A stretch of DNA of 64,000 nt from Eledone cirrhosa (lineage: Eukaryota), in assembly GCA_964016885.1 (NCBI GenBank), contig OZ024740.1:90396001-90460000 (forward strand), in the 5' to 3' direction. Of this stretch, positions 50,969-54,021 are shown piece after piece. The stretch's first letter is position 1. Every line of letters starts with the position of its first letter. The position numbers and the translations under genes were made by a program. The notes under the pieces were generated by a model that was not told the origin of the DNA, searched no databases, and was given only the letters and a program-made list of their open reading frames with translations.

Positions 50969-53900
50969 AGTTGAAAAAAAAAAATGAAAACGAAATTTCG
51001 TTTTCATTTTTTTTTTTCAACTTATCGTTTTCGGTATGCCTCACCGATTTAACTCACTCAATATGCAAATTAGGCTGCTCAGCCATTAATTTTCATAAGG
51101 AAAGTATATACTTTCGAACGTTCAACTATCTGGCAGATGGGTAAACGGTGCTGATGATAGCTAACAAGCTTGAAACTAGTACATCGTTCCTGTGTCAGTG
51201 TTGAACAAAAAGGTGACGTGGTTGCCTTAACACCGTATGGCATAAATTCAGGCTGTTCGGTTTGTTGACAAACAAACGAACAAAGCGACGTTATAATAAA
51301 CGTCGGCTAAACTGATGCGTGCATATATGTATGTGTACCTGTATGCATATGTGTATATATATATATATATATATATATATATATATATATATATATATAT
51401 ATATATATATATATATATATATATATATATATATATATATATATACATGTGCATGCTACTGTACGTCTGTATACATATATGTATGTACGTATACATACAT
51501 ACTTACTTTTAAGTAAGTGCCATACTAAGAGTGAGAAATGAAATTTCGTTTTCATTTTTTTTTTTTTTCAACTTATCGTTTTCGGTATGCCTGACCGATT
51601 TAACTCACTCAATATGCAAATTAGGCGGCTCAGCCATTAATTTTCATAAGGAAAGTATATACTTTCGAACGTTCAACTATCTGGCAGATGGGTAAACGGT
51701 GCTGATGATAGCTAACAAGCTTGAAACTAGTACATCGTTCCTGTGTCAGTGTTGAACAAAAAGGTGACGTGGTTGCCTTAACACCGTATGGCATAAATTC
51801 AGGCTGTTCGGTTTGTTGACAAACAAACGAACAAAGCTACGTTATAATAAACGTCGGCTAAACTGATGCGTGCATATATGTATGTGTACCTGTATGCATA
51901 TGTGTATATATATATATATATATATATATATATATATATATATATATATACATGTGCATGCTACTGTACGTCTGTATACATATATGTATGTACGTATACA
52001 TACATACTTACTTTTAAGTAAGTGCCATACTAAGAGTGAGAAATGAAATTTCGTTTTCATTTTTTTTTTTTTTCAACTTATCGTTTTCGGTATGCCTGAC
52101 CGATTTAACTCACTCAATATGCAAATTAGGCTGCTCAGCCATTAATTTTCATAAGGAAAGTATATACTTTCGAACGTTCAACTATCTGGCAGATGGGTAA
52201 ACGGTGCTGATGATAGCTAACAAGCTTGAAACTAGTACATCGTTCCTGTGTCAGTGTTGAACAAAAAGGTGACGTGGTTGCCTTAACACCGTATGGCATA
52301 AATTCAGGCTGTTCGGTTTGTTGACAAACAAACGAACAAAGCTACGTTATAATAAACGTCGGCTAAACTGATGCGTGCATATATGTATGTGTACCTGTAT
52401 GCATATGTGTATATATATATATATATATATATATATATATATATATATATATATACATGTGCATGCTACTGTACGTCTGTATACATATATGTATGTACGT
52501 ATACATACATACTTACTTTTAAGTAAGTGCCATACTAAGAGTGAGAAATGAAATTTCGTTTTCATTTTTTTTTTTTTCAACTTATCGTTTTCGGTATGCC
52601 TGACCGATGTAACTCACTCAATATGCAAATTAGGCTGCTCAGCCATTAATTTTCATAAGGAAAGTATATACTTTCGAACGTTCAACTATCTGGCAGATGG
52701 GTAAACGGTGCTGATGATAGCTAACAAGCTTGAAACTAGTACATCGTTCCTGTGTCAGTGTTGAACAAAAAGGTGACGTGGTTGCCTTAACACCGTATGG
52801 CATAAATTCAGGCTGTTCGGTTTGTTGACAAACAAACGAACAAAGCTACGTTATAATAAACGTCGGCTAAACTGATGCGTGCATATATGTATGTGTACCT
52901 GTATGCATATGTGTATATATATATATATATATATATATATATATATATATATATATATATATACATGTGCATGCTACTGTACGTCTGTATACATATATGT
53001 ATGTACGTATACATACATACTTACTTTTAAGTAAGTGCCATACTAAGAGTGAGAAATGAAATTTCGTTTTCTTTTTTTTTTTTTTCAACTTATCGTTTTC
53101 GGTATGCCTGACCGATTTAACTCACTCAATATGCAAATTAGGCTGCTCAGCCATTAATTTTCATAAGGAAAGTATATACTTTCGAACGTTCAACTATCTG
53201 GCAGATGGGTAAACGGTGCTGATGATAGCTAACAAGCTTGAAACTAGTACATCGTTCCTGTGTCAGTGTTGAACAAAAAGGTGACGTGGTTGCCTTAACA
53301 CCGTATGGCATAAATTCAGGCTGTTCGGTTTGTTGACAAACAAACGAACAAAGCTACGTTATAATAAACGTCGGCTAAACTGATGCGTGCATATATGTAT
53401 GTGTACCTGTATGCATATGTGTATATATATATATATATATATATATATATATATATATATATATATATATATATATACATGTGCATGCTACTGTACGTCT
53501 GTATACATATATGTATGTACGTATACATACATACTTACTTTTAAGTAAGTGCCATACTAAGAGTGAGAAATGAAATTTCGTTTTCATTTTTTTTTTTTTT
53601 CAACTTATCGTTTTCGGTATGCCTGACCGATTTAACTCACTCAATATGCAAATTAGGCTGCTCAGCCATTAATTTTCATAAGGAAAGTATATACTTTCGA
53701 ACGTTCAACTATCTGGCAGATGGGTAAACGGTGCTGATGATAGCTAACAAGCTTGAAACTAGTACATCGTTCCTGTGTCAGTGTTGAACAAAAAGGTGAC
53801 GTGGTTGCCTTAACACCGTATGGCATAAATTCAGGCTGTTCGGTTTGTTGACAAACAAACGAACAAAGCGACGTTATAATAAACGTCGGCTAAACTGATG

Positions 53901-54021
53901 CGTGCATATATGTATGTGTACCTGTATGCATATGTGTATATATATATATATATATACATGTGCATGCTACTGTACGTCTGTATACATATATGTATGTACG
54001 TATACATACATACTTACTTTT
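50969..54021 (+). mobile_element. Head-to-tail array of ~6 non-coding HHR-containing units (retrozyme-like)
   Basis: Units start (gaaatttcg) at 50992, 51540, 52045, 52550, 53058 and 53572. They are near-identical except for (AT)n length. There is a 5' palindrome at 50968-51023. Confidence 0.9.
51144..51188 (+). ncRNA. Minimal type I hammerhead, array unit 1 (also 51695-51739, 52200-52244, 52704-52748, 53212-53256, 53727-53771)
   Basis: aacggtg-CTGATGA-t agct aaca agct t-GAAA-ctag-TA-catcgtt, with a 7-bp stem I and palindromic stem III (actagt). Confidence 0.88.

What the first reader, a model, noticed from the sequence alone, without database searches (positions are those of the whole stretch)
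50969..54021. Six-unit hammerhead-ribozyme tandem array: candidate cephalopod retrozyme / circular-RNA system
Seen: ~5.9 head-to-tail non-coding units, each with an identical minimal type I HHR (7-bp stem I, palindromic stem III ACUAGU). Cleavage-site spacings are 551, 505, 504, 508 and 515 nt and differ almost only in an internal (AT)n. The unit is full of self-complementary segments (aaagtatatacttt; atctggcagat; gttcggtttgt..acaaacgaac; gcatatgtg(ta)n..catgtgc; acttactt ttaagtaagt). The array starts with a short inversion (50968-51023), stops ~29 nt short of a complete sixth unit, and is flanked by (TA)n like the autonomous PLEs nearby. Established: metazoan non-LTR retrozymes are tandem repeats with minimal type I HHRs that self-cleave as dimers, yield monomeric circRNAs, and are thought to be mobilised by PLEs. 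Inference: this is one rolling-circle reverse-transcription product of a ~505-nt viroid-like circRNA that carries its own (AT)n target sequence. That is longer than the retrozyme units I recall, and I do not recall any described from cephalopods.
Basis: partly seen in the sequence, partly recalled or inferred. Interest (0 to 1): 0.9.

Follow-up and report, generated by a model that had tools for sequence, protein, structure and literature searches.

The report
Ribozyme repeat spread by Penelope retrotransposons
This six-unit array is one copy of a very abundant non-coding repeat with a predicted self-cutting hammerhead RNA, and its insertions have the same ends as a neighbouring Penelope-type retrotransposon, so it is likely copied by Penelope enzymes, possibly from a circular RNA, as was proposed for animal retrozymes.

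Summary
In detail: six identical type I hammerhead motifs, spaced 551, 505, 504, 508 and 515 nt, in about six non-coding units.

The array is not local. The exact ribozyme motif occurs 10,122 times in this 3-Gb genome, a sister core 12,756 times, and a distant 467-bp relative 9,305 times.

Insertions have Penelope-like (PLE) anatomy:
- two fixed 3' ends about 60-65 nt apart, joined to (TA)n;
- scattered 5' ends;
- inverted arms with one tailed and one untailed end in 32 of 32 clean pairs.
The neighbouring Hydra-type PLE, whose family has intact reading frames, follows the same rule (10 of 12 pairs). Copies do not start at the ribozyme cut site, so the template is likely a circle or an uncut multimer. 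A pristine 20-unit insertion favours a circle.

- The hammerhead is canonical-type, not minimal.
- End phases are fixed.
- The internal (AT)n is dispensable for targeting.
- About 505 nt lies within published retrozyme sizes.
- Four central units share a private change, suggesting later local expansion.

Cleavage, circular RNA, helper PLE and host taxon are unproven. Verdict: new member of a known kind, with unusually direct evidence for PLE-type mobilisation.

The parts
50925..50968 (.). Left (TA)n target tract (22 TA; TA-rich from 50893), following the tailed end of a neighbouring PLE terminal repeat
50966..50995 (-). Inverted stub of the unit ending at the tailed 3' end X; folds back at palindrome GAAATTTC 50992-50999; shares the array's long poly(T)
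50996..54022 (+). Direct arm, about 5.9 units, ending at the untailed 3' end Y
51145..51187 (+). Hammerhead 1 (type I: 6-bp stem I, 4-bp stem II on a U.U pair, loop AACA, palindromic ACUAGU stem III); predicted cut after 51181
51696..51738 (+). Hammerhead 2; predicted cut after 51732
52201..52243 (+). Hammerhead 3; predicted cut after 52237; extended stem I spans about 52176-52262
52705..52747 (+). Hammerhead 4; predicted cut after 52741
53213..53255 (+). Hammerhead 5; predicted cut after 53249
53728..53770 (+). Hammerhead 6; predicted cut after 53764
51905..51950 (.). Internal (TA)n at the tip of a long predicted hairpin (one per unit: 51354-51445, 51905-51950, 52410-52455, 52914-52963, 53422-53477, 53937-53956); absent from the related 467-bp family
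52110..52165 (+). Conserved block holding the octamer ATGCAAAT (once per unit; 9-mers at 51062, 51613, 52118, 52622, 53130, 53645). It has a 12-nt exact match with the distant family; role unexplained
54021..54241 (.). Right (TA)n target tract
50448..50893 (+). Context: inverted terminal repeat of a neighbouring Hydra-type PLE, with its own hammerhead at 50765 and tailed end at 50893; no similarity to the unit detected
49045..50448 (-). Context: 5'-truncated RT-endonuclease frame (467 aa) of that PLE; the family has intact 745-758 aa frames elsewhere

Best explanation
The array is one young insertion of a high-copy, non-coding tandem repeat with a predicted hammerhead ribozyme (a non-LTR retrozyme), likely copied in trans by a Penelope-like reverse transcriptase/endonuclease into (TA)n tracts from an RNA that likely has no free end at the ribozyme site, most likely a circle. 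SHOWN: copy number, two fixed 3' ends at (TA)n, scattered 5' ends, one tailed and one untailed end per inverted insertion, both arms drawn from one source, no pile-up of starts at the cut site, compensatory changes in the RNA helices, and the same end rule in an ORF-bearing PLE family. INFERRED: tandem transcripts self-cleave through dimeric hammerheads, because stem III is a short palindrome. The long extended stem I holds the ends together and a host ligase closes the circle. The PLE enzyme nicks (TA)n and primes two cDNAs at two UA-containing sites about 60-65 nt apart. Each cDNA runs a variable distance across the junction, and the two join head to head, often at palindromes. In the window this gave a 30-nt stub plus a multimeric arm; the four central units were probably expanded or homogenised locally afterwards. 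Odds: PLE-type mobilisation about 0.9; ribozyme active in vivo about 0.75; circular rather than uncut linear template about 0.55.
For: Copy number: 10,122 exact 40-nt motifs, 12,756 sister cores and 9,305 in the distant family; reversed-pattern controls were 0. Ends: in 72 stretches, 109 of 118 3' ends are clean X or Y at (TA)n, and 32 of 32 clean divergent pairs have one tailed and one untailed end. In the coding PLE family 10 of 12 pairs do; three fetched long arrays of the distant family do in 3 of 3. This matches the PLE scheme of PMC8557442. Both arms share rare alleles 16 times in 46 loci, against a mean of 0.49 in 200 permutations. Starts at the cut site: 2 of 30 and 5 of 30 inspected, against 16 of 30 at a control position. 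A 20-segment insertion (7+13) has one singleton variant and no shared ones; L268 and L269 have no shared variants. Covariation: 49 double-change cells against 20.3 +/- 3.1. Stems I and II are replaced between families around the same core.
Against: No autonomous PLE with sequence similarity to the unit was found in 271 held stretches (1.2 Mb), although such similarity is the link reported for Xenopus retrozymes. Several arrays carry ordered, unit-specific variants that one pass round a monomeric circle cannot make: the window's G,T,T,T,T,G pattern; ABAB at 16 sites in L142; a SNP-deletion pair repeated twice in one arm and once in the other in L079/L140. These need multimeric templates or later exchange. 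In the cited preprint 8 of 9 predicted retrozyme dimers did not cleave in vitro. In one search the number of pairs with a double change (6) does not exceed shuffles (6.1), and related sequences inflate the cell count. The U.U pair at the base of stem II and the weak stem III predict slow cleavage.
Confidence: 0.72

Rival explanations
1. Same PLE-type mobilisation, but the template is an uncut linear read-through multimer from existing arrays. The hammerhead only releases RNA occasionally or is carried along, and no circle is needed.
For: Ordered unit-specific variants are shared between arms. Weak dimer-type ribozymes leave multimers intact (axolotl multimers, PMC7229834). It explains the lack of starts at the cut site equally well.
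Against: Older arrays are internally heterogeneous (13 and 8 shared variant columns in two of three long arrays; L267), so their transcripts should give heterogeneous daughters. Yet a 20-segment insertion is uniform. The core and stems are kept across families that are only about 65% alike.
Confidence: 0.3
2. Insertions are short (about 1-1.3 units, like solo PLE terminal repeats), and tandem arrays, this one included, grow afterwards by local unequal exchange as minisatellites.
For: Units 2-5 of the window share a private allele and similar TA lengths, 23-28 against 46 and 10. A stretch of more than 50 kb on C3 behaves as a satellite with higher-order patterns and many dead cut sites. This route is proposed in bioRxiv 10.64898/2026.07.22.740005.
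Against: Multimers occur in both arms of single inverted insertions, with exact X/Y ends and almost no divergence. Multi-unit loci are common among the first 100 matches. Local growth likely adds to some arrays but does not make most.
Confidence: 0.15
3. The unit is simply the terminal repeat of a coding PLE that was not sampled, amplified as truncated ends.
For: PLE terminal repeats carry hammerheads and the same ends. Several other hammerheads here, including the neighbouring PLE's, share the U.U base of stem II. Only about 100 of more than 10,000 motif places were examined in detail.
Against: In the 49 unselected and 22 best-hit loci the unit is never continued by a recurrent coding body. 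After the tail it runs into the next unit or (TA)n, with rare one-off junctions. The coding PLE family continues into its frame at 5 of 49 terminal-repeat copies.
Confidence: 0.08
4. The array, or its copy number, is an assembly artefact.
For: Near-identical units with long TA tracts are hard to assemble, and no read spanning this array was available.
Against: The family has thousands of copies with consistent ends and different flanks. It is present in assembled contigs of runs X1 and X6 (X1 may be the source sample). The units here differ in TA length and single bases. Only the exact unit number is open.
Confidence: 0.04

Closest known systems
Metazoan non-LTR retrozymes (coral, mussel, axolotl; Cervera & de la Pena 2020, PMC7229834)
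   Same: Non-coding tandem repeats below 50% GC, one type I hammerhead per unit, strongly self-paired. The short palindromic helix III resembles axolotl HHR_Amex1 and the U.U at the base of stem II resembles HHR_Amex2. Thousands of copies, coexisting with PLEs.
   Different: Unit 420-550 nt against about 170-400 nt in that paper (within the 51-972 bp of the 2026 preprint). Internal (TA)n hairpin. Strict (TA)n targeting with two fixed ends and 5' inversions, which the parts I read do not describe. Cleavage and circRNA not shown here.
Vertebrate non-LTR retrozymes as PLE derivatives (Li, Clavereau & Pollet, bioRxiv 10.64898/2026.07.22.740005)
   Same: Tandem HHR units, monomers to long arrays, proposed mobilisation by PLEs.
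   Different: Their link rests on co-occurrence and terminal-repeat homology. Here no homologous PLE was found, but the insertion footprint matches a coding PLE. They sampled no mollusc (0 hits for 'mollus' or 'cephalopod' in the main text).
EN+ Penelope-like elements, Hydra clade (Craig et al. 2021, PMC8557442)
   Same: 5' truncation, partial tandems, inverted 5' copy, a tail at one end only, (TA)n targeting, hammerhead in the repeat. The neighbouring coding family has RWR, DKT and CxCx5C, as described for Hydra.
   Different: The unit has no reading frame. Its tail is about 60-65 nt (about 70 nt in the coding neighbour), against the 30-40 bp described.
Non-autonomous Chlamys PLEs such as MRC1 (PMC8557442)
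   Same: Non-coding, multicopy head-to-tail insertions made by PLE machinery.
   Different: [quoted passage not shown]
Newt satellite 2
   Same: Tandem repeat with a dimer-type hammerhead; the unit here holds an octamer 119-131 nt before the cut.
   Different: Satellite 2 has an snRNA-type promoter (cited in PMC2220036; original not held). Here the conserved block does not resemble this genome's U1 promoters.

Membership tests
Non-LTR retrozyme | Tandem repeat with a type I HHR in at least two consecutive units | tested here: met
   Six of six units; many other arrays
Non-LTR retrozyme | Non-coding; no PBS or PPT; GC below 50% | tested here: met
   No frame of 150 aa or more overlaps 50966-54022; AT-rich. 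PBS and PPT were judged by eye only
Non-LTR retrozyme | Canonical type I architecture (helix I 6 bp, helix II 4 bp, short palindromic helix III) | tested here: met
   Pair tables over 147 distinct sequences against the definition in PMC4209133; the loop 1-loop 2 contact is inferred only
Non-LTR retrozyme | Highly self-paired predicted RNA | tested here: met
   Circle -173.7 kcal/mol, 68% paired; z -5.7 without the microsatellite; covariation
Non-LTR retrozyme | Self-cleavage as monomer or dimer | not testable with these tools
   Needs in vitro transcription
Non-LTR retrozyme | Expressed as monomeric circular RNA | not testable with these tools
   Needs RNase R with northern blot or divergent RT-PCR on host RNA
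PLE-mobilised non-autonomous element | Fixed 3' ends, variable 5' truncation, inverted 5' copy, tail at one end only | tested here: met
   32 of 32 pairs; 112 5' breakpoints spread over positions 15-428 of 459
PLE-mobilised non-autonomous element | Microsatellite (TA)n insertion bias | tested here: met
   109 of 118 ends are clean X or Y at (TA)n; 4 of the 5 irregular tailed ends also run into (TA)n
PLE-mobilised non-autonomous element | Sequence similarity to the terminal repeat of an autonomous PLE | tested here: inconclusive
   None in 271 held stretches; 89,017 PLE-like candidates were mostly unsampled
Autonomous PLE | RT plus GIY-YIG reading frame between terminal repeats | tested here: not met
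   Units follow one another without a frame
PLE min-HHR | Helix II 7-8 bp, helix I 4-5 bp, helix III essentially absent | tested here: not met
   Helix II 4 bp, helix I 6 bp with a long extension
snRNA-promoter satellite (newt satellite 2 type) | Octamer plus a proximal element like the host's snRNA genes | tested here: not met
   Octamer present (136 of 154 units), but no match to 12 distinct U1 upstream regions, which have no octamer in 300 nt; U2 and U6 not tested

The most novel reading that the evidence does not exclude
PLE reverse transcriptase primes twice, at two fixed sites 60-70 nt apart, on a ribozyme-made RNA circle, and does so for both these retrozymes and the coding PLEs. The strict one-tail/one-no-tail rule, multimers in both arms and read-through of the cut site would then be the genomic footprint of a circular intermediate. 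That would explain the PLE 'tail', the partial tandems and the hammerhead together. Three related families with more than 30,000 ribozyme copies would make this genome a natural mutagenesis library for the mechanism.
Probability: 0.4. Interest if true: 0.75.

Novelty: new member of a known kind. Interest (0 to 1): 0.5.

Why it matters
Who mobilises animal retrozymes, and what hammerheads do for PLEs, are open questions in the papers read (PMC7229834, PMC7761336, PMC8557442). The link there rests on co-occurrence and terminal-repeat homology. Here a non-coding hammerhead repeat and a coding PLE family in one genome leave the same two-ended footprint, counted over dozens of insertions. This gives exact priming sites, a young helper candidate with intact frames and a short substrate for an in vitro or cell assay. 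The class itself is known, including in a mollusc (mussel), so the array alone is not a new kind of system.

Tried and rejected
RNA evidence: no RNA holder listed. The one RNA run, X7, gave 0 reads in about 12% of the run, which is no test. X4 laid 0 contigs, X6 one and X1 3,662.

Rfam: no match at gathering score.

Helper search: tblastn and ORF scans of held loci, masked sensitive blastn, a relaxed stem II pattern (8 matches, all mutants of the family), a motif scan and a DNA search with L063:1010-1285 (nothing rang) found no coding partner. The neighbouring PLE's terminal repeat is unrelated in sequence.

snRNA-type promoter: not supported against U1. Within the family the octamer window is not exceptionally conserved (23% of windows score as high).

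HHR-cut linear monomer as main template: rejected.

Internal (AT)n as a target guide: rejected.

Scripts with faults: the end classifier mis-parsed poly(T) and was replaced. One search crashed after clustering. The family C classifier flagged palindromic anchors as false ends, so pairs were taken.

Other blanks: the Atlas search of P0001 gave PLE-like clusters but no host taxon. Three look-ups of earlier findings returned nothing. Lunse 2017 and Coats 1994 were not held.

Full report
OBSERVATION. The sequence and a script confirm six identical hammerhead motifs on the + strand, with predicted cuts after 51181, 51732, 52237, 52741, 53249 and 53764. The five full units have 458-459 nt outside an internal (TA)n. 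The array opens with a 30-nt inverted stub that folds back at GAAATTTC and closes at about 54022, between two (TA)n tracts. No frame of 150 aa or more overlaps it, and Rfam gives no gathering-level match. Below, positions A1-A459 refer to window 51951-52409; the cut follows A287.

A GENOME-WIDE FAMILY. The own genome (3.0 Gb, 1,796 contigs) holds 10,122 exact copies of the 40-nt motif. It holds 12,756 of a sister core differing at position 7, whose typical units are 420-430 bp and about 77% alike. A distant family C (65% over about 145 nt, unit 466-469 bp) has 9,305. Reversed-pattern controls were 0. Among 154 distinct near-full units, 7 clusters have three or more members, and distances reach 25%.

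INSERTION ANATOMY. I examined the 49 loci holding the first 100 matches on C1, 22 non-overlapping best-hit loci and the window, 72 stretches in all. Of 118 3' ends, 55 are untailed (Y, mostly A56-70), 54 are tailed (X, about A125-130), 5 are irregular tailed and 4 are other. All 32 stretches with exactly one end on each strand, pointing apart, have one tailed and one untailed end (28 clean, 4 with an irregular tail). Of the rest, 31 have a single end (17 X, 14 Y); 9 with three ends, no end or a converging layout were not counted. The 112 5' breakpoints spread over A15-A428. The window fits this pattern: stub ending at X, long arm ending at Y. This is the PLE scheme of PMC8557442: 5' truncation, partial tandems, inverted copy, and a tail at one end.

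THE CODING NEIGHBOUR. The frame at 49045-50448 belongs to a young family with intact frames of about 745-758 aa. It carries RWR, DKT and CxCx5C, as described for the Hydra clade (motif inspection only, no tree), and has 13,416 exact copies of its own hammerhead. Its insertions also have two ends about 70 nt apart. Of 12 divergent pairs, 10 have one of each, 1 probably does, and 1 (an old copy at window 19.1-19.5 kb) was scored tail/tail. The array sits in the (TA)n after this element's tailed end. No similarity between the two beyond short words was detected, so the neighbour shows the machinery type, not the helper. Three long arrays of family C also have one X and one Y end, though family C lacks the internal (TA)n. 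The tract is therefore not the targeting device.

THE RIBOZYME. Over 147 distinct sequences, stem I pair 1.3 is G.U in 105, A-U in 23 and U.G in 16. Pair 1.7 is mostly U.U, with the 3' U kept in 144. Stem II is 4 bp on a U.U pair with loop AANA, and stem III is ACUAGU. Core letters were partly fixed by the search pattern, and some of these loci were selected for cut-site mutations. The architecture matches the canonical metazoan type I of PMC4209133, not its min-HHR, and predicts dimeric cleavage. That the free U contacts loop II is inferred from recalled hammerhead structures. Family C keeps the core, stem III and loop II but replaces stems I and II. In 32 chosen units (of 154) the structure has 97.9% paired cells and 49 double-change cells against 20.3 +/- 3.1 in shuffles. 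Only 6 pairs carry such changes, no more than in shuffles, and relatedness inflates the cell count. Stem I extends to about 22 bp across the cut, which would hold cleaved ends together.

WHAT WAS COPIED. If cut linear monomers were the template, copies would start at A288. They do not. Of 187 matches with a non-native base just before the cut, 2 of the first 30 are truncations. Of 167 with a non-native base at -3, 5 of 30 are. At a control position 16 nt downstream, 16 of the first 30 of 115 are. The template is thus a circle or an uncut multimer. Both arms come from one source: 16 shared rare alleles in 46 inverted loci, against 0.49 expected.

For a circle: an insertion of 7+13 segments has one singleton variant, and L268 (nine-unit arm) and L269 have no shared variants. 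Against a monomeric circle alone: L142 alternates ABAB at 16 sites, and L079/L140 repeats a SNP-deletion pair twice in one arm and once in the other. In the window, three private changes are fixed in all five full units, but a fourth (G>T; G form in 10 stretches, T form only here) marks units 2-5 only. Older long arrays show patterned shared variants (13 and 8 columns; a satellite of more than 50 kb on C3). Later exchange can therefore explain such patterns. I put the circle at about 0.55.

COMPARISON WITH WHAT IS KNOWN. Non-LTR retrozymes with canonical type I HHRs and circRNAs are shown for coral, mussel and axolotl, with PLEs proposed as helpers (PMC7229834, parts 2-4 of 6 read; PMC7761336, passages). 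A 2026 preprint (10.64898/2026.07.22.740005, parts 1-3 of 5 and passages; supplements not seen) reports consensus lengths of 51-972 bp, homology to PLE terminal repeats, and cleavage in 1 of 9 dimers.

Other papers seen: PMC8557442 (passages, sections 6 and 11, supplement rows listing (TA)n-inserting Naiads in Octopus and Euprymna); PMC4209133 (abstract and Results); PMC6962438 (passages: 235 hammerhead matches in giant squid); PMC13282606 (parts 1-2 of 3: active PLE families in O. vulgaris, no retrozyme named in those parts); PMC2220036 (passages). Searches listed no cephalopod retrozyme paper and no title on a counted tail/no-tail rule. The library lacks most subscription papers, and Repbase, Dfam and the Zenodo octopus library could not be checked, so the family may already be catalogued as a SINE, satellite or unknown repeat.

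UNEXPLAINED. A block of about 55 nt holding ATGCAAAT gives a 12-nt exact match between families A and C, longer than the ribozyme core's 9 nt. It does not resemble the 12 distinct U1 upstream regions among 30 loci. It may bind the helper protein or a host factor.

VERDICT. The feature is real and correctly observed. It is a new member of the non-LTR retrozyme / non-autonomous PLE kind, not a new system. Its value is the counted footprint tying it to PLE machinery and constraining the template. Interest 0.5; the novel reading (two-site priming on a circle, shared by PLEs) has probability 0.4 and interest 0.75.

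Noticed in passing
L243:2261-2728; L339+L340; L341+L342 (G000 C1 5.74 and 30.83 Mb): Distant 467-bp hammerhead family C (9,305 motif copies, arrays of 16-32 segments) without internal (TA)n, with the same ends and a G-C base of stem II.
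   Followed up: yes
window 38825-50893: An untailed end at about 38825 (-) and a tailed end at 50893 (+) of the Hydra-type PLE may bound one insertion, whose microsatellite 3' region took in further PLE pieces (42785-46885).
   Followed up: partly
L236, L248, L253, L255, L265: In the coding PLE family many inverted pairs join within 5-18 nt upstream of the hammerhead core in both arms, a junction hot spot at stem I; loci were selected for the core, so the excess is unquantified.
   Followed up: partly
G000:C3:12272037-12324199 (L266, L267): Satellite-like stretch of more than 50 kb of this family with higher-order variant patterns; at least 54 units have G at the cut position, predicted inactive.
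   Followed up: partly
L034:6270-8490: A separate 310-bp tandem array (8 hammerheads, stem III CGCG) next to an array of this family; another retrozyme-like family.
   Followed up: no
window 17821 (+), 20019 (-), 41771 (-), 57591 (-), 60035 (+), 62666 (-), 63387 (+): Further hammerhead-like motifs; two flank the GIY-YIG-bearing frame at 58027-59049.
   Followed up: no
L033:371-2870; L034, L035, L039: Another young PLE family lies beside 4 or more of the 49 unselected loci; it also shows tailed and untailed ends, and its hammerhead-like motif reads CAGAAGA in place of CTGA.
   Followed up: partly
L309-L338: U1 snRNA genes in 2.67-kb tandem arrays; upstream regions share a TCAGT-ending motif near -55 and a TCCCTTGA motif near -250, with no octamer.
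   Followed up: partly
L060, L066, L075, L023: Internal (TA)n tracts of some copies are widened by 0.6-1.1 kb or followed by a second 3' piece, suggesting the tract is itself a landing site for later insertions.
   Followed up: no
window 405-3126 (+), 4386-6209 (-), 35343-36680 (+): Fragments of LINE-type reverse transcriptase frames (RVT_1, zf-RVT).
   Followed up: no
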